Below are positions 17 to 53,356 of a stretch of 64,000 bases of DNA, piece after piece. The stretch lies in sequence record OQ561750, one strand, 5' to 3'. Position numbers and translations under genes: made by a program. Under the pieces are notes generated by a model. It saw only the letters and a list, made by a program, of their open reading frames with translations, had not been told where the DNA came from and ran no database searches. The DNA comes from Escherichia phage LHE83. Position 1 is the stretch's first letter; each line of letters starts with the position of its first letter.

Positions 17-613
17 ATGAAAACGTATAAAGAATTTATCGCCGAAGCTTCTGTAGGAAAGGTCCAAGGCATTAATAAAGATGAGTGGACTTACAAAGGA
101 AACGGCGTTGACAACCCAGGAAACGGTTTTGACGCTAAAACAGCTCCTATTGAACGGTATTTAGCTACAAAGGCTTCTGATTTTAAAGCTTTCGCCTGGG
201 AAGGACTTCGCTGGCGTAACGACCTAAATATTGAAGCTGATGGACTTAAATTTGCCCATATCCAAGATGTTGTTGCTAGTAACTTGGACGCAGCTTTTGT
301 TAAAGCTGACGGTGACCTTCGTCGCTGGAATTTAAAACTGTTCTCTAAACAGAAAGGTCCTGTATTTGTACCTAAAGCAGGTAAATGGACTATTGATAAT
401 AAATTGGCTAAGGCGGTCAACTTCGCCGGTCTTGAATTTGCCAAGCACAAATCAGCATGGAAAGGTCTCGATGCAATGACTTTCCGTAAAGAATTTGCCG
501 ATGTTATGGCTAAAGGCGGCTTTAAGGCAGAAATAGATACCTCTAAAGGTACGTTTAAAGACGCTAATATTCAGTACGCTTACGCCGTTGCTAATGCTGC
601 CCGTGGTAATTAA
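17..613 (+). CDS. ipIII: internal head protein IPIII-like
   Basis: ORF track; N-terminal MKTYKEFIAEA capsid-targeting motif shared by T4 internal proteins; length and sequence resemble T4 IPIII (memory). Confidence 0.8.
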   Translation: MKTYKEFIAEASVGKVQGINKDEWTYKGNGVDNPGNGFDAKTAPIERYLATKASDFKAFAWEGLRWRNDLNIEADGLKFAHIQDVVASNLDAAFVKADGDLRRWNLKLFSKQKGPVFVPKAGKWTIDNKLAKAVNFAGLEFAKHKSAWKGLDAMTFRKEFADVMAKGGFKAEIDTSKGTFKDANIQYAYAVANAARGN

Positions 614-2961: not shown

Positions 2962-3236
2962 TTGAAGATATCAAGGGTTACAAACCACATACCGACGATA
3001 AAATCGGTAAAGTGAATGCTATTAAAGATGCCGAAATTCGGTTAGGGCTGATGTTTAAAGCTCTAGAAGAAGAACATGTTACCTATTATATGAACTTAGA
3101 TACCGAAGAGGTTTCTGAACAAGAACTAGACCAGGCTCATGAACGCATTACCCAGATTCGTAATGCAATTGACCGTCTTAAAGAAGCTAGTATGTGGGCT
3201 TGTCGCTCTGTGTTCCAACCAGAAGAAAAGTACTAA
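2958..3236 (+). CDS. hypothetical small helical protein (vs-region)
   Basis: ORF track; ATGA overlap with upstream stop. Confidence 0.5.
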   Translation: MIEDIKGYKPHTDDKIGKVNAIKDAEIRLGLMFKALEEEHVTYYMNLDTEEVSEQELDQAHERITQIRNAIDRLKEASMWACRSVFQPEEKY

Positions 3237-3240
3237 AGCA

Positions 3241-3270
3241 GTTTACATCTCCTGTAGGTATGATACTATA
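3241..3270 (+). promoter_or_regulatory. early promoter cassette upstream of regB
   Basis: GTTTAC then 17 nt then TGATACTAT then CCTATCAAC; inverted repeat CTCCTGTAG/CTACAGGAG flanks the -10 and includes the Shine-Dalgarno. Confidence 0.55.
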
Positions 3271-3297
3271 AACCTATCAACTACAGGAGATTACAAA

Positions 3298-3756
3298 ATG
3301 TCAGAAATTAATTCAGAAGTATTCATCCGCCGCAATAAATTACGTCGTCAGTTCGAAACCGAATTCCGCGAACTGAATGCGTCCATCAAAAAAGCCGCCA
3401 TTAAGAGCGGAGTCCCAGCCTTCTTTATTAAGTACTCTAATCACTTGTTGGACCGTGCTATCCAACGTGAAATCGACGAAAAATACGTTTTTGCTTTATT
3501 CAAGCAACTCCATAACCATGTTAAAGAAATTCATGAATTTTTAATCCAGGAACCTCTGCCTGATGTAGAAGCCGAAATCATTCCTGGTAAAGTGTATCGC
3601 CCATTGCGTCTCGAAATTACCGATAAAACCTTATGGCTAGGTATGACTGTAGATCGTAAACATCCTGATAAAGGATACTCGTTAAAATGTCGTATGGCAT
3701 TTGTTAACTCTAAACGTTTAGAAGGTAAAACCAGCACGAAAGTAATCTATCTTTAA
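3298..3756 (+). CDS. regB: RegB site-specific endoribonuclease
   Basis: Internal ATG after the promoter cassette; MSEINSEVFIRRNKLRR...LLDRAIQREIDE resembles T4 RegB; track start 3139 runs through the promoter. Confidence 0.85.
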   Translation: MSEINSEVFIRRNKLRRQFETEFRELNASIKKAAIKSGVPAFFIKYSNHLLDRAIQREIDEKYVFALFKQLHNHVKEIHEFLIQEPLPDVEAEIIPGKVYRPLRLEITDKTLWLGMTVDRKHPDKGYSLKCRMAFVNSKRLEGKTSTKVIYL

Positions 3757-3768
3757 TAATGAGGTCTC

Positions 3769-4308
3769 ATGAAAAAAGTATTAGCCACTTTACTATTGAC
3801 AGTTAGTATGTCTGCCCATAGCGTAGAGCCTACTTTCAGTAATGAACAACTCGATAATTTACATTATGCGTATGCTTTCGGTGAACAATACCAAAAGTCG
3901 GGAAAGTTCAAAGAAACCCCTAATCAAAAAGGATTAGGATATATCATGGCCGGATTACTATGGCAGGAATCATCCGCCGGAATTAATCAAGGTTTAAATA
4001 AAGATAAGCACCATGCTTATGGCATGTTCCAAAATTACTTGCCTACGTTAAGAAGTCGTGTTCAACAGGTAGGTTGGAAGATGTCTGACAAAGAAATAAT
4101 TCGTATGGTCCAAAAACGACAGAACAGTGCCTCTTGGGCCTACATTGAACTGTCTTATTGGATTGATGTTCACAAAGGTGACCTGAGAAAAGCGATTGCT
4201 TCTTATAATGCGGGCTGGAACGCCAAAGCAGGCAGTAAATATGCTTCTGAAGTTCTAGAAAAGGCCAATTACCTAAAATCTAAAAAGATGTTTGAGGCGG
4301 TGTATTAA
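3769..4308 (+). CDS. secreted lytic transglycosylase-like protein
   Basis: N-terminal signal peptide; motifs LWQESSAG, AYGMFQ and SYNAGWN resemble the SLT-domain catalytic Glu-Ser and AYNAG motifs. Confidence 0.55.
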   Translation: MKKVLATLLLTVSMSAHSVEPTFSNEQLDNLHYAYAFGEQYQKSGKFKETPNQKGLGYIMAGLLWQESSAGINQGLNKDKHHAYGMFQNYLPTLRSRVQQVGWKMSDKEIIRMVQKRQNSASWAYIELSYWIDVHKGDLRKAIASYNAGWNAKAGSKYASEVLEKANYLKSKKMFEAVY

Positions 4309-4665
4309 ATGATTAAGCAGATGACTATAGCGCTTATGTTGATTGCTCCGGGAGTATTAGCGTCACAAGTTGATGATAGTAATAATTCAATTGTCGAGTA
4401 TGCTACCCGTACAGCAAAAGATTATTGTCATCCGAGTAATACTGAATGCATTATCGAATTCAGTTCAAAAATCACAGCTGCTTTTAAAGATGGCCAGAAC
4501 GACGTAGAGCATCGCCGAATGAAAGAGAAAACTCTTTCTAAAAGATACGAGCAACGTCTAAACGTTACTGAATGTATTCCATCTGATAAAAAGTACAAAG
4601 AAATGTGCGCGTCTATGGTAGACAGACTCGTTGATTCATACAACCGAGGATTAAACTCTAAATGA
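4309..4665 (+). CDS. secreted or periplasmic hypothetical protein
   Basis: ORF track; hydrophobic N-terminus; several Cys. Confidence 0.5.
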   Translation: MIKQMTIALMLIAPGVLASQVDDSNNSIVEYATRTAKDYCHPSNTECIIEFSSKITAAFKDGQNDVEHRRMKEKTLSKRYEQRLNVTECIPSDKKYKEMCASMVDRLVDSYNRGLNSK

Positions 4666-5129
4666 TTATTGATTATATTAAGGGCGATATCGTCGCCCTG
4701 TTTCTTCAAGGTAATAATGTTGCACACGGGTGCAACTGTTTCCACACAATGGGTTCAGGTGTAGCTGGGCAATTGGCTAAGGCTTATCCGCCTATTCTCG
4801 CTATCGATAAAACTACTTATTTAGGCAATTTGGCAAAACTTGGCACGTTTACTCAAGCTACAGGTAATAATGGCCAAATTTGCTATAATTTATATACCCA
4901 ATACGAACCAGGCCCTAATCTTGATTATGGTGCTTTAGTAAACTGTATGATAGAATTAAACCGTACCGCAAAAGGTCTTTTGTTTAAACCAAGAATTTAT
5001 ATTCCTCGCATTGGTTGTGGTATTGCTGGTGGTGATTGGGACAAGGTTTACCAATTGATTAATTTGTTTACTCCTGATATTAATTTAGTGGTGGTAGATT
5101 ATGAAAGCCCATTACCCGCATCCGTTTGA
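4662..5129 (+). CDS. macrodomain-like protein (putative ADP-ribose binding or hydrolase)
   Basis: GDIV...VAHGCNC...MGSGVAGQLAKA...IGCGIAGG pattern resembles macro-domain glycine-rich loops; ATGA overlap with upstream. Confidence 0.45.
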   Translation: MIIDYIKGDIVALFLQGNNVAHGCNCFHTMGSGVAGQLAKAYPPILAIDKTTYLGNLAKLGTFTQATGNNGQICYNLYTQYEPGPNLDYGALVNCMIELNRTAKGLLFKPRIYIPRIGCGIAGGDWDKVYQLINLFTPDINLVVVDYESPLPASV

Positions 5130-5313
5130 CCCTAAAAACAAAGCGGAAATTATTCGACGCTGGACCGAAACACGAGTAACTAAATGCCCTATAAAAAGTC
5201 AACACAACACCGATAAATGGTATATTGGTGAATATGTTGAATATACTTTTATAGATAAAAATAAACGTAAACAGCATGTAGAAGAATATTGCTTAAAGGT
5301 GCAATGGTTATGA
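5101..5313 (+). CDS. hypothetical protein
   Basis: ORF track; overlaps the 3' end of the previous gene. Confidence 0.4.
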   Translation: MKAHYPHPFDPKNKAEIIRRWTETRVTKCPIKSQHNTDKWYIGEYVEYTFIDKNKRKQHVEEYCLKVQWL

Positions 5314-6072: not shown

Positions 6073-6351
6073 ATGGACCTAAATTCAAAGATTTTAATTC
6101 TAGCGTTCGCTGTGGCTATTTCTTATATTGTTCTTTCGCCTATCATGGATGATGTGGCTTACAAAAGAGAGATAGAGGTTGTAGCAGCGACGTATAATGC
6201 TAATAATAAAGAGTGTCCTAATAAAAATGGGATGGATTTAATTAAAGCGCATTATATGCTTTCCATTACCTCGCCTATACAGAGGAATTGGGTTGAATAT
6301 AATTTTAACGACGTGTTCTATTCTTATTGTCGTAAGCTTAAAAAGCTATAA
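6073..6351 (+). CDS. hypothetical membrane protein
   Basis: ORF track; N-terminal transmembrane segment. Confidence 0.5.
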   Translation: MDLNSKILILAFAVAISYIVLSPIMDDVAYKREIEVVAATYNANNKECPNKNGMDLIKAHYMLSITSPIQRNWVEYNFNDVFYSYCRKLKKL

Positions 6352-6443: not shown

Positions 6444-6737
6444 ATGGATATTTTCCGTACAGCGGCTTGTATCCTTATGGCGGGATGTTTAAGCCCTACA
6501 GTTTCACTAGCAAATGACACCAACGATAAATTGATGGATGCATTTGCTAGTAGTGCGATGCCTGTTTATGCGCAAATGAGTAGACCTAGCATAAAGGCCT
6601 CCGAAGACTATTGGGCCTACCTTAATGCTTCTTGGAAGGTATCAAGTTGTCAGACTATAGAAGCGTGCTCAATTGAAGGTCGTGCCATCGGAGAGCGTTA
6701 TGCAAAACTAATGAAGGTGGAAGATGAAGTTCAATGA
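6444..6737 (+). CDS. rI: lysis inhibition regulator rI-like
   Basis: 97 aa; signal-anchor N-terminus; Cys pattern and size as T4 RI; sits between tk and the nrdC-region genes. Confidence 0.6.
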   Translation: MDIFRTAACILMAGCLSPTVSLANDTNDKLMDAFASSAMPVYAQMSRPSIKASEDYWAYLNASWKVSSCQTIEACSIEGRAIGERYAKLMKVEDEVQ

Positions 6738-17774: not shown

Positions 17775-18072
17775 AATTGAGATTTACGGTATCCCTGAGA
17801 CAGTCATGCGCTGTCCAGGGTGCATTGCTGTTCTATCGCTCCTAAATTCCCTTTCTATCCCACATACTTTCTATCCTGTGATTAATCAGACGCCGTCAGG
17901 CGCAGTATATGACAAGCCTCTTATAGTATCATTGGCCAAACGTGCAGGCTTCAAGAGCTTAGCGATACGCTATCCTGTCATATTTGTCGATAATAAGAAA
18001 ATAGAAAATATTCCTGCCTTCAAATCGCTTTTGATTGAACTTGGTTATGACCGAGATTTAATTGAAGATTAG
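17755..18072 (+). CDS. thioredoxin/glutaredoxin-fold protein (CPGC)
   Basis: GTG start with AAGGAG Shine-Dalgarno 9 nt upstream; CxxC after the first beta-strand. Confidence 0.45.
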   Translation: MDQKLTKIEIYGIPETVMRCPGCIAVLSLLNSLSIPHTFYPVINQTPSGAVYDKPLIVSLAKRAGFKSLAIRYPVIFVDNKKIENIPAFKSLLIELGYDRDLIED

Positions 18073-32285: not shown

Positions 32286-32786
32286 ATGAAAAAGTTAATT
32301 ATCGCAATGAGTATGCTCCTATCAGGTTGCGCGGTCCAATATGGTGATACAGTTTCGGCTGATGAAGTTGGTAAAGCTCGTATCGCAGCTGAACAGAAAC
32401 AATTCGATGGCGAAATGAAATTCCGTGCAGGTTCTGGACTTGTGTACACCCGAGCTAATAATCAATGCGGTAATAACTGTGCAAAATATGCTCAACAAGA
32501 AATCGAATTCCAACGTGAACAAGAGTCCAAGCGTGAAGCGGTACTAGCCAAACACCAGGCAGAAATGAAGCGTCAAGATGATTTGTACAAAAAGCAGAAA
32601 CTGTATGCGATGTGCGTAAACCATATCAATCTACAGATTTCCATCCACGAGGCTCGTTATTACGAAATGCTCGAAACCGAGAGCTTCGGTAAAGCTCGTG
32701 ATTATAAGAAACAAATCGATAAGCTCAAGACCAAAGCACCGGCGGCAATAGAACAGTGTATTGAAATCGGTAAAGATAAGATTTAA
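32286..32786 (+). CDS. hypothetical lipoprotein
   Basis: Signal peptide with LSGC lipobox; charged helical remainder. Confidence 0.55.
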   Translation: MKKLIIAMSMLLSGCAVQYGDTVSADEVGKARIAAEQKQFDGEMKFRAGSGLVYTRANNQCGNNCAKYAQQEIEFQREQESKREAVLAKHQAEMKRQDDLYKKQKLYAMCVNHINLQISIHEARYYEMLETESFGKARDYKKQIDKLKTKAPAAIEQCIEIGKDKI

Positions 32787-40657: not shown

Positions 40658-40951
40658 ATGAAAAAGTTATTAATCGCAGCAATTCTTGCCGTAGCATCAT
40701 GTGGTACAGCTCCAGTTACTGCTGGACTTGATAAAGACCTTTGTGAATGGTCTATGACTGCAGACCAAGAATCGGTCGAACATCAGATTTATGCTGATAT
40801 CATGAACATCACTAAACGTGACCGCCCTGATATGGTTAAAGAAGTGTCAGACCAATTGGCTTCAAGCGGCGTTATGCAGTATAACTATGTTCTGTATTGT
40901 GACGCTAATTTCGATAACAAAAACATCGTTAAAGAGGTGACAGGTGAATAA
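40658..40951 (+). CDS. sp: Spackle (periplasmic superinfection-exclusion protein)
   Basis: 97 aa; signal peptide; DKDLCEWSMTADQ...GVMQYNYVLYCD near-identical to T4 Sp from memory. Confidence 0.75.
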   Translation: MKKLLIAAILAVASCGTAPVTAGLDKDLCEWSMTADQESVEHQIYADIMNITKRDRPDMVKEVSDQLASSGVMQYNYVLYCDANFDNKNIVKEVTGE

Positions 40952-53095: not shown

Positions 53096-53356
53096 ATGAA
53101 ATATATTAATCGTTCTATTGCAGCTCTCGTATTAGCAGTTTCTTTGGTTGGATGTACTGATGCCGATAATGCTACCCGTGTATTGGATGCAAATGGCTAC
53201 GAACAAATCCAAATCACAGGATACAACCTATTTGGCTGCTCTGAAGATGATTTCCAACGTACAGGCTTTATTGCTGTGGGTCCGACAGGTAAAAGGGTTG
53301 AAGGAACTGTTTGTTCTGGATTATTCTTTAAAAAGTCGACCATTCGATTTGATTAA
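53096..53356 (+). CDS. hypothetical lipoprotein
   Basis: Signal peptide plus LVGC lipobox. Confidence 0.55.
   Translation: MKYINRSIAALVLAVSLVGCTDADNATRVLDANGYEQIQITGYNLFGCSEDDFQRTGFIAVGPTGKRVEGTVCSGLFFKKSTIRFD

What the first reader, a model, noticed from the sequence alone, without database searches (positions are those of the whole stretch)
3769..4665. Two consecutive secreted proteins, the first with lytic-transglycosylase motifs
3769-4308 has a cleavable signal peptide and the motifs LWQESSAG, AYGMFQ and SYNAGWN, which resemble the catalytic Glu-Ser and AYNAG signatures of SLT-domain lytic transglycosylases. 4309-4665 also has a signal peptide and multiple Cys. They are distinct from the virion lysozyme domain and the endolysin, and an early-region periplasmic murein hydrolase could act in superinfection exclusion, lysis timing or cell-wall remodelling.
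Basis: partly seen in the sequence, partly recalled or inferred. Interest (0 to 1): 0.5.

Follow-up and report, generated by a model that had tools for sequence, protein, structure and literature searches.

The report
T4 vs.1 transglycosylase and exported Vs
These two genes are the T4-type phage genes vs.1 and vs: vs.1 is a predicted exported cell-wall-cutting enzyme, as already published, but its partner, always labelled a modifier of a cytoplasmic tRNA synthetase, looks built for export out of the cytoplasm.

Summary
The window is a T4-like phage of the JS10/Bp7/WG01 group. ORF 3769-4308 is the orthologue of T4 vs.1, and ORF 4309-4665 is the orthologue of T4 vs, annotated "valyl-tRNA synthetase modifier". 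They sit between regB and tk.4.

**Vs.1.** It has a Sec-type signal peptide and the three family-1 lytic-transglycosylase motifs, in Slt70's order and spacing:
- E67-S68, with Glu67 aligned to the catalytic Glu478 of Slt70
- G85-M-F-Q88
- Y146-N-A-G149

**Vs.** This is the less ordinary part. In every homologue examined, Vs has a signal peptide and four conserved Cys in a small four-helix protein. One clade has a lipoprotein lipobox instead. It starts within a few bases of the vs.1 stop codon, and I never found it without vs.1. That topology conflicts with its textbook cytoplasmic role.

Published T4 transposon data show that insertions in both genes are under-represented. vs insertions are strongly depleted in minimal medium.

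Enzyme activity, export and any Vs-Vs.1 interaction remain untested.

The parts
3761..3764 (+). Shine-Dalgarno GAGG of vs.1, 4 nt upstream of the ATG. The regB stop codon is at 3754-3756.
   Evidence: Read directly from the sequence.
3769..4308 (+). vs.1 orthologue, 179 aa: a predicted exported family-1 (GH23, SLT-domain) lytic transglycosylase.
3769..3822 (+). Predicted Sec signal peptide of Vs.1 (residues 1-18, MKKVLATLLLTVSMSAHS|VEP). There is no Cys, so it is not a lipoprotein. The mature protein is 161 aa, 18.5 kDa, pI 9.4.
   Evidence: Heuristic analysis across 36 homologues. Masses.
3967..3969 (+). Codon of Glu67, the predicted catalytic acid/base (E-S motif).
   Evidence: Invariant in A1. 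Aligns with Slt70 Glu505 of the precursor, which is Glu478 of the mature protein. Motif spacing ES -> G(L/M)(M/F)Q -> YNAG is 67/85/146, against 505/520/579 in Slt70.
4309..4665 (+). vs orthologue, 118 aa (family PF26829, 'ValRS_modifier'): a predicted exported four-helix protein with four conserved Cys.
   Evidence: phrog_1256 E=3e-34. Homologues carry PF26829. 46% identical to T4 Vs. AF2 model: signal peptide plus helices 23-39, 45-68, 73-89, 94-115, pLDDT 77.
4309..4365 (+). Predicted Sec signal peptide of Vs (residues 1-19, MIKQMTIALMLIAPGVLAS|QVD). The mature protein is 99 aa, 11.5 kDa.
   Evidence: Homologues of one clade carry the lipobox ALSGC instead.
4426..4608 (+). Span holding the four conserved Cys codons: C40 at 4426-4428, C47 at 4447-4449, C89 at 4573-4575, C100 at 4606-4608. 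C40/C47 flank the helix1-helix2 loop and C89/C100 flank the helix3-helix4 loop.
   Evidence: Invariant in A2. The pattern C-x5-10-C ... C-x8-10-C is kept in divergent homologues. Positions relative to the helices. Disulfide pairing is inferred.
4662..5129 (+). Flanking gene tk.4 (macro domain), whose start overlaps the vs stop (ATGA). It is context only, not part of the pair.
   Evidence: Pfam Macro E=7e-8. The T4 orthologue is named AdfM, an anti-DarT factor, in preprint 10.1101/2025.11.20.689424.

Best explanation
The two ORFs are the vs.1-vs gene pair of T4-like phages, lying between regB and tk.4 in the regB-to-tk block of the genome.

**Vs.1.** It is made as a precursor, exported by Sec, and cleaved after about residue 18 to give a soluble 18.5-kDa periplasmic enzyme. 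The enzyme has the goose-lysozyme/SLT (GH23) fold. By homology, Glu67 acts as the single acid/base that cleaves the MurNAc-beta-1,4-GlcNAc bond of peptidoglycan, forming 1,6-anhydroMurNAc.

**Vs.** It is probably translated in coupling with Vs.1: its ATG abuts the vs.1 stop here, and the two genes overlap by 8 nt in T4. It is likewise exported and folds into an 11.5-kDa four-helix protein, probably stapled by two disulfides. It therefore most likely acts in the cell envelope, in the same pathway as Vs.1. The most concrete model is a modulator or inhibitor of the transglycosylase, like a periplasmic immunity protein next to a muramidase effector.

**What is shown and what is inferred.**
- Shown: orthology, motifs, predicted fold, conservation of the signal peptides and Cys, and gene linkage.
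- Inferred: export, enzyme chemistry, disulfides, and any Vs-Vs.1 functional link.
For: **Identity.**
- The region is 97-99% identical in DNA to phages WG01, Bp7, MX01, KIT01 and IME08, and 95% to JS10. Several of these records, such as Bp7, IME08 and JS10, name the genes regB, vs.1, vs and tk.4.
- PHROG hits support both genes, as does comparison with the T4 locus.

**Vs.1 as an SLT enzyme.**
- Pfam SLT is hit by 35 of 36 relatives, best E=1.3e-7.
- E67, S69, G85, Q88, N89, Y146, N147 and G149 are invariant.
- E67 aligns with the catalytic Glu of Slt70, and the motif spacing matches.
- The AF2 model has pLDDT 85.

**Export.**
- The signal-peptide architecture is conserved in all homologues of both families despite sequence drift.
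- A Vs clade carries the lipobox ALSGC|K.
- Vs has four conserved Cys.
- N-terminally His-tagged T4 Vs made in the cytoplasm was insoluble (PMC8076793).

**Linkage.**
- In about 55 of 59 parsed IMG/VR loci, the ORF starting -8 to +7 nt from the vs.1 stop is Vs-family. In more distant T4-likes it lies one or two genes downstream.
- All 27 loci found by searching with Vs lie on contigs that also carry vs.1.

**Fitness.**
- In T4, transposon insertions in vs and vs.1 are both roughly 7- to 30-fold rarer than in the neighbouring genes (regB, tk.4, vs.3) in LB.
- From LB to M9-glucose, vs drops by log2FC -2.19 (padj 0) and vs.1 by -0.87 (p=0.0055). tk.4 and vs.3 do not change.
- A vs deletion impairs plaque formation in M9Glc.
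Against: - The window protein itself scores below Pfam's SLT gathering cut-off (16.2 against 21.3 bits).
- Sequence and profile searches of the PDB gave nothing significant.
- The hhalign match to Slt70 is only 14 columns long, with low probability.
- No dedicated signal-peptide predictor was run, and there is no experimental localisation.
- vs.1 occurs without any recognisable Vs in Aeromonas T4-likes, Kuttervirus, Mooglevirus and jumbo phages. Vs is therefore not an obligatory partner.
- vs.1-vs adjacency could simply reflect the conserved regB-to-tk gene order.
- The fitness effect of vs.1 insertions could be polarity on vs.
- Classical work (recalled from memory, not readable here) assigns Vs to binding cytoplasmic ValRS.
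- The Vs model matches no known lysozyme or transglycosylase inhibitor fold.
Confidence: 0.8

Rival explanations
1. Vs is what its label says: a cytoplasmic peptide (the 'tau' factor) that binds host valyl-tRNA synthetase and changes its properties. On this view the hydrophobic N-terminus is not used for export, or only partly, and the position next to vs.1 is just conserved gene order with no functional link.
For: - Every annotated record calls it the valyl-tRNA synthetase modifier.
- Papers cite Muller & Marchin 1975/1977 for binding to ValRS.
- The T4 vs deletion is defective in minimal medium, where amino-acid supply and tRNA charging matter.
- vs.1 exists without Vs in several phage groups.
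Against: - A canonical signal peptide is conserved in all 50-plus homologues examined.
- One clade has a lipoprotein lipobox, which makes sense only outside the cytoplasm.
- Four conserved Cys lie at loop ends of a small helical protein.
- Mature T4 Vs would be 11.0 kDa against 13.1 kDa for the precursor. The about-10-kDa size I recall for tau fits the processed, hence exported, form.
- I could not read the original evidence that ties the vs locus to this particular ORF.
Confidence: 0.35
2. Vs.1 is not an active lytic transglycosylase. It could instead be a hydrolytic g-type lysozyme, or a catalytically silent peptidoglycan-binding protein that has kept the fold.
For: - The protein is sub-threshold for Pfam SLT.
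Against: - The catalytic Glu-Ser, G-x-x-Q and Y-N-A-G motifs are invariant over relatives down to 43% identity in the alignment. They are still readable in homologues of roughly 29-34% identity, such as Sf13 and LPST94. That argues for retained catalysis.
- No second acidic residue is conserved after the catalytic Glu, unlike the arrangement I recall for hydrolytic g-type lysozymes.
- The best hits are transglycosylases.
Confidence: 0.1
3. Vs.1 is an accessory lysis or superinfection-exclusion factor acting alone. Vs is an unrelated envelope protein, for example one that blocks incoming phage as Spackle does.
For: - Both are predicted periplasmic proteins of a T4-like phage, like Sp, Imm and RI.
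- rI lies 2 kb downstream.
- In Mooglevirus Sf13 the vs.1 homologue sits directly after rIIA/rIIB.
Against: - In the T4 transposon data, sp and imm show no change from LB to M9 (+0.20 and +0.06), and their mean insertion counts are 7- to 17-fold higher than those of vs and vs.1. The phenotypes therefore differ.
- The Vs fold does not match Spackle or any lysozyme inhibitor in the PDB.
- There are no direct data on lysis timing or exclusion.
Confidence: 0.15

Closest known systems
Bacteriophage T4 Vs.1 (gene vs.1, NP_049725) and its orthologues in Straboviridae
   Same: Direct orthologue: 66% identity over the full length, the same position between regB and vs, and the same signal peptide and motifs. 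The SLT similarity was already reported for T4 and five T4-like phages (PMC1524935).
   Different: Nothing material. A protein 100% identical is already in GenBank as 'hypothetical protein'.
Family-1 (GH23) lytic transglycosylases: E. coli Slt70, MltE/EmtA, P. aeruginosa MltF/Slt, and the small 'specialised' enzymes such as EtgA
   Different: - Only 13-18% identity.
- A single 161-residue domain with its own conserved N-terminal extension (residues about 20-56).
- No lipid anchor and no accessory domains.
- Phage-encoded and not virion-associated.
- Below Pfam's curated threshold.
Bacteriophage T4 Vs, 'valyl-tRNA synthetase modifier' (PF26829)
   Same: Orthologue: 46% identity, the same length, signal peptide, four Cys, C-terminal SMVDRLVDSYNRGL motif and position.
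   Different: The defining biochemical property, binding ValRS, was not testable here. The predicted extracytoplasmic topology is at odds with it.
Periplasmic effector-immunity pairs of type VI secretion (for example Tse3-Tsi3) and proteinaceous lysozyme/transglycosylase inhibitors (Ivy, PliG, T4 Spackle)
   Same: - The gene layout: a lysozyme-fold enzyme followed immediately by a small exported or lipoprotein partner that diverges faster than the enzyme. In L002, Vs.1 is 65% identical while Vs is only about 25%.
   Different: - The Vs model has no fold similarity to any such inhibitor.
- No interaction has been shown.
- Some phages have the enzyme without Vs.

This is an analogy only.

Membership tests
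Family-1 lytic transglycosylase (SLT domain, PF01464, GH23) | Catalytic Glu followed by Ser (motif I, E-S) | tested here: met
   E67-S68. E67 is invariant and S68 nearly invariant in 36 homologues. E67 aligns with Slt70 precursor Glu505, which is mature Glu478.
Family-1 lytic transglycosylase (SLT domain, PF01464, GH23) | Motifs II (G-L-M-Q) and III (A-Y-N-A-G) downstream, at the family's spacing | tested here: met
   G85-M-F-Q88 and S-Y146-N-A-G149. Offsets from the Glu are 18 and 79, against 15 and 74 in Slt70. G85, Q88, Y146, N147 and G149 are invariant.
Family-1 lytic transglycosylase (SLT domain, PF01464, GH23) | Score above Pfam's curated gathering threshold | tested here: not met
   The window protein scores 16.2 bits against a cut-off of 21.3. 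However, 35 of 36 relatives match at E<=0.1, best 1.3e-7, and many homologues carry a precomputed PF01464 hit.
Family-1 lytic transglycosylase (SLT domain, PF01464, GH23) | Lysozyme-like all-alpha fold with a substrate groove | tested here: met
Family-1 lytic transglycosylase (SLT domain, PF01464, GH23) | Non-hydrolytic cleavage of peptidoglycan giving 1,6-anhydroMurNAc | not testable with these tools
   Needs an enzyme assay and muropeptide analysis.
Family-1 lytic transglycosylase (SLT domain, PF01464, GH23) | Access to peptidoglycan (export to the periplasm) | tested here: met
   A predicted Sec signal peptide is conserved in all 36 homologues. This is a heuristic prediction only.
T4 Vs / ValRS_modifier (PF26829, phrog_1256) | Sequence membership | tested here: met
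   phrog_1256 E=3e-34. All 28 homologues carry PF26829. 46% identical to T4 Vs.
T4 Vs / ValRS_modifier (PF26829, phrog_1256) | Binds and modifies host valyl-tRNA synthetase | not testable with these tools
   Known only from cited 1970s biochemistry. The original papers are not held.
T4 Vs / ValRS_modifier (PF26829, phrog_1256) | Cytoplasmic location, as ValRS binding in vivo implies | tested here: not met
   The signal peptide is conserved in all homologues and one clade has a lipobox. Four Cys are conserved. This is a prediction only.
Proteinaceous lysozyme/transglycosylase inhibitors (Ivy, MliC/PliC, PliG, Spackle) or T6SS immunity proteins | Fold or sequence similarity to a known inhibitor | tested here: not met
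   Foldseek of the Vs model against the PDB gives only generic helical bundles (E>=0.4, probability <=0.23). There are no PDB sequence hits.
Proteinaceous lysozyme/transglycosylase inhibitors (Ivy, MliC/PliC, PliG, Spackle) or T6SS immunity proteins | Direct binding and inhibition of the adjacent enzyme | not tested

The most novel reading that the evidence does not exclude
Proteins of the Vs family work outside the cytoplasm, as soluble periplasmic proteins or as lipoproteins. There they act as partners or inhibitors of the Vs.1 lytic transglycosylase, or otherwise on the cell envelope. If so, the fifty-year-old label 'valyl-tRNA synthetase modifier' would describe one of three things: an association formed after lysis, a side activity of unexported precursor, or a mis-assignment of the genetic vs locus to this ORF. 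The minimal-medium defect of T4 vs mutants would then be an envelope phenotype.
Probability: 0.3. Interest if true: 0.65.

Novelty: already known. Interest (0 to 1): 0.33.

Why it matters
As written, the finding rediscovers a published annotation-level prediction: T4 vs.1 resembles SLT. It therefore adds little by itself.

It does matter in two modest ways.

1. **The enzyme claim is now firmer.** The SLT assignment, previously called "marginally significant", rests here on a confident structure model, a catalytic-residue alignment and family-wide motif invariance. Vs.1 is thus a third, non-virion, non-endolysin muralytic enzyme of T4-like phages. Its role is unknown, and its loss carries a measurable fitness cost in T4.
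2. **The Vs annotation has an unaddressed problem.** Vs has a textbook cytoplasmic function, yet it has the hallmarks of an exported, disulfide-bonded protein and is genetically tied to the transglycosylase. Resolving this would either correct a long-standing annotation propagated to hundreds of phage genomes, or reveal how an exported protein affects a cytoplasmic synthetase.

Tried and rejected
- **PDB sequence searches.** phmmer and a profile search with Vs.1 gave no significant hit. The best were metacaspase at E=0.17 and goose lysozyme at E=0.8. These were uninformative rather than negative.
- **hhalign of the Vs.1 alignment against the Slt70 C-domain.** It gave only a 14-column match of low probability. 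I used it only to place Glu67, together with the motif spacing.
- **Foldseek of the Vs model against the PDB.** Only generic helical bundles came back, so no fold assignment was made.
- **Exhaustive profile search for Vs.** It found 8 clusters in 1.84 billion proteins. One of them, a 3,694-aa protein with 17 weak repeat matches, is an artefact of summed repeats and was rejected.
- **NCBIfam.** No hit for either protein.
- **The search for related loci with the broad Vs alignment A3.** It failed because no stretch was conserved enough. I used A2 instead.
- **Literature.**
  - Miller 2003 and Muller & Marchin 1975 are not held.
  - Searches for vs.1 function, for Vs localisation and for Marchin's work found nothing beyond Nolan 2006, the T4 protein-expression paper and the HIDEN-SEQ preprint.
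- **Promoter and terminator scan.** It showed nothing above the shuffled expectation for promoters.
- **A Zn(Cys)4 site as an alternative to disulfides in Vs.** I considered this but cannot exclude it without coordinates. The signal peptide makes disulfides the more likely reading.
- **Mirror-tree co-evolution of Vs and Vs.1.** I considered it and did not run it, because tight linkage would confound the result.

Full report
**What is there.** The window is a T4-like myovirus. Bases 3200-5200 are 97-99% identical to Escherichia phages WG01, Bp7, MX01, KIT01 and IME08, and 95% identical to JS10. Several of these records, such as Bp7, IME08 and JS10, name the genes in this stretch regB, vs.1, vs, tk.4 and tk.3.

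The ORF list and the sequence confirm both ORFs of the finding:
- **3769-4308** encodes 179 aa, with a GAGG ribosome-binding site four bases upstream of the ATG.
- **4309-4665** encodes 118 aa. Its ATG directly follows the TAA of the first ORF, and its TGA overlaps the ATG of the next gene.

Upstream lies RegB (Pfam REGB_T4, E=8e-69). Downstream lies a macro-domain protein. PHROGs places the first protein in phrog_600 (unknown function, E=3e-67) and the second in phrog_1256 (valyl tRNA synthetase modifier, E=3e-34).

The T4 locus has the same gene order. T4 Vs.1 is 66% identical and T4 Vs is 46% identical to the window proteins. The two "secreted proteins" are therefore the orthologues of T4 vs.1 and vs.

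**Is the first protein a lytic transglycosylase?**

*Sequence evidence*
- The window protein alone is below Pfam's SLT threshold: 16.2 against 21.3 bits, E=0.008.
- 35 of 36 diverse homologues hit SLT, with a best E-value of 1.3e-7. Many homologues carry a precomputed PF01464 hit.
- In the 36-sequence alignment, which reaches down to 43% identity, these residues are invariant: W65, E67, S69, G85, Q88, N89, E127, Y146, N147 and G149. They make up the three signature motifs of family-1 transglycosylases.
- Compared with E. coli Slt70 (locus L009), Glu67 aligns with precursor Glu505. That is Glu478 of the mature enzyme, which I recall as the published catalytic residue.
- The motif positions are 67/85/146 in Vs.1 and 505/520/579 in Slt70.

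*Structure evidence*
- The AlphaFold model is confident: pLDDT 85, pTM 0.79.
- Foldseek ranks MltD and Slt first, at probability 0.99.

No second acidic residue is conserved after the catalytic Glu. That favours transglycosylase chemistry over hydrolytic lysozyme chemistry, but only an assay can settle it.

This similarity is not new. Nolan et al. 2006 reported it for six vs.1 orthologues and cite Miller et al. 2003 for T4 (PMC1524935). Some GenBank records already say "SLT transglycosylase".

**Are the two proteins exported?** No dedicated predictor was available, so I applied the classical criteria to all homologues.
- **Vs.1 (36 sequences).** Every sequence has 1-2 Lys/Arg, then a 7-14 residue hydrophobic core, then a small-x-small site. 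The window's site is AHS|VEP after residue 18. The segment varies in sequence while its properties are conserved, which is how real signal peptides behave.
- **Vs (27 sequences).** The same holds. The window's site is LAS|QVD after residue 19, and T4's is ASA|DTS after residue 20.
- **Specificity of the criteria.** Only 6 of 115 + strand ORFs in the window pass a comparable filter.

For Vs there are two further signs:
1. **Four conserved Cys.** Cys 40, 47, 89 and 100 are invariant among close homologues. The pattern C-x5-10-C ... C-x8-10-C persists in relatives only about 20-25% identical.
2. **A lipoprotein variant.** One clade replaces the signal-peptidase-I site with the canonical lipobox ALSGC|K. 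This clade comprises P0132 (locus L002) and loci L036, L037, L040, L042 and L057. A lipobox makes sense only for an extracytoplasmic protein.

The AF2 model of Vs (pLDDT 77) is a four-helix bundle. Cys40/Cys47 flank the first loop and Cys89/Cys100 flank the third. That arrangement is compatible with two loop-stapling disulfides, but this is inference because I could not read coordinates. N-terminally His-tagged T4 Vs expressed in the cytoplasm was insoluble (PMC8076793), which is weakly consistent with an exported protein.

**Are the two genes linked?**
- **Distribution.** Vs.1 relatives occur in 2,075 phage records, including Aeromonas, Vibrio and Acinetobacter T4-likes, Kuttervirus, and Ounavirinae phages such as Mooglevirus. 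With the window protein as query, Vs is detected in only 795 records. Much of that gap is due to fast divergence of Vs.
- **Adjacency.** In 70 IMG/VR loci found with Vs.1, a broadened Vs HMM recognises the ORF that starts -8 to +7 nt from the vs.1 stop in about 55 of 59 parsed loci (E from 1e-14 to 1e-58). Each of these has a signal-peptide-like N-terminus and, apart from two truncated copies (L011, L042), the four Cys.
- **More distant T4-likes.** In six of the eight 175-180 kb T4-like loci (L069-L076), Vs lies one or two genes further downstream.
- **The converse.** All 27 loci found by searching with Vs lie on contigs that also carry vs.1. The two most divergent Vs homologues also sit directly after a vs.1 gene that is 63-65% identical to the window's.
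- **True absences.** Aeromonas T4-likes, Kuttervirus, Mooglevirus and two jumbo contigs have vs.1 but no Vs.
- **Restriction to phages.** An exhaustive profile search found only 8 Vs clusters among 1.84 billion proteins. One was a repeat artefact.

**Functional data from the literature.** The HIDEN-SEQ preprint (10.1101/2025.11.20.689424) classifies T4 vs and vs.1 as non-essential in LB. Its tables nevertheless show that insertions in both genes are far rarer than in their neighbours. Mean reads per TA site in liquid LB:

| Gene | Mean reads per TA site | log2FC, LB to M9-glucose |
|---|---|---|
| vs | 26.6 | -2.19 (adjusted p = 0) |
| vs.1 | 22.6 | -0.87 (p = 0.0055, adjusted 0.155) |
| regB | 178.6 | +1.17 |
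| tk.4 | 289.6 | -0.07 |
| vs.3 | 652 | -0.06 |
| sp | 183.8 | +0.20 |

The vs depletion was the strongest in that comparison, and it was confirmed with a clean deletion. The vs.1 effect could be polarity on vs. These data show that the pair matters for fitness. They do not say where the proteins act.

**The conflict with the Vs annotation.** Every record calls Vs the valyl-tRNA synthetase modifier, citing work by Marchin and colleagues from the 1970s. From memory, that work describes an approximately 10-kDa phage peptide that binds host ValRS. I also recall genetic interactions between vs and valS(ts) hosts. I could not read those papers, nor the paper that tied the genetic locus to this ORF.

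Mature T4 Vs would be 11.0 kDa, against 13.1 kDa for the precursor. So the reported size, if anything, fits the processed form. I found no paper that discusses this topology problem.

Four readings are possible: post-lysis association, dual localisation, a non-exported pool, or a mis-assigned ORF. I give about 0.35 to the classical cytoplasmic function being the main in vivo role. I give about 0.3 to Vs being primarily an envelope protein working with Vs.1.

**Verdict.** The core of the finding is already known at annotation level.

The best-supported mechanism is this. Vs.1 is a Sec-exported soluble GH23 lytic transglycosylase that uses Glu67. It is co-expressed with an exported four-helix, four-Cys partner, Vs. 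The residual interest lies in the unexplained role of this third muralytic enzyme and in the topological paradox of Vs.

Noticed in passing
window 4662-5129: tk.4 orthologue with a macro domain (Pfam Macro E=7e-8, weak DarG-like NCBIfam hit). Its ATG overlaps the vs stop. The T4 orthologue was recently named AdfM, an anti-DarT2 factor (preprint 10.1101/2025.11.20.689424).
   Followed up: partly
window 17-613, 655-957, 1469-1768: Three internal virion/head proteins flank denV (1003-1425). All begin with MKTY(K/Q)EFI(A/T)EA, which looks like the shared capsid-targeting leader of T4 internal proteins.
   Followed up: partly
window 32286-32786, 40658-40951, 53096-53356 (also 17806-18072): These are the only other + strand ORFs that pass the crude signal-peptide filter. 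Three have lipobox-like sites (LLSGC, VASC, LVGC). The 97-aa ORF at 40658 is the size I recall for T4 Spackle.
   Followed up: no
GenBank/UniRef records of vs.1 homologues (hits H48, H54, H55; P0019, P0056): Several vs.1 homologues are annotated 'endoribonuclease' or 'site-specific RNA endonuclease'. This looks like an error carried over from the neighbouring regB gene. The Kuttervirus homologue (L008:1971-2588) clearly has the E-S and YNAG motifs.
   Followed up: partly
L011 (IMGVR_UViG_2974741249, phage vB_EcoM_005; P0105) and L042: Naturally truncated Vs genes. One is an 85-aa form lacking the region that holds the first Cys pair. The other is a 65-aa form ending after the first pair. Vs may therefore be dispensable or decaying in some phages.
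   Followed up: no
window 4681-4699: A terminator-like GC-rich hairpin followed by a T-rich run (AGGGCGATATCGTCGCCCT GTTTCTT) lies just inside the tk.4 coding region, 16 nt after the vs stop. Terminator-like sites in this 2.5-kb stretch were somewhat more frequent than in shuffles (5 against 1.8).
   Followed up: no
L005:2856-3296, L062:3856-4296, L064:4109-4549 (Aeromonas T4-like phages): Where Vs is absent, a 146-aa predicted lipoprotein (MKKSIA..YGC) lies two genes downstream of vs.1, just before the macro-domain gene. It could be a non-homologous replacement for Vs.
   Followed up: no
window 6073-6351 and 6444-6737: An rI.1-like ORF and the RI lysis-inhibition protein (phrog_1246, E=2e-29) lie about 2 kb downstream. 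RI is only 26% identical to T4 RI, far more diverged than its neighbours.
   Followed up: partly
P0130 (3,694 aa, from the representative-protein search): A giant protein made of about 17 copies of a 206-aa repeat reached E=7e-10 against the Vs profile by summing weak per-repeat matches. I judged it spurious.
   Followed up: yes
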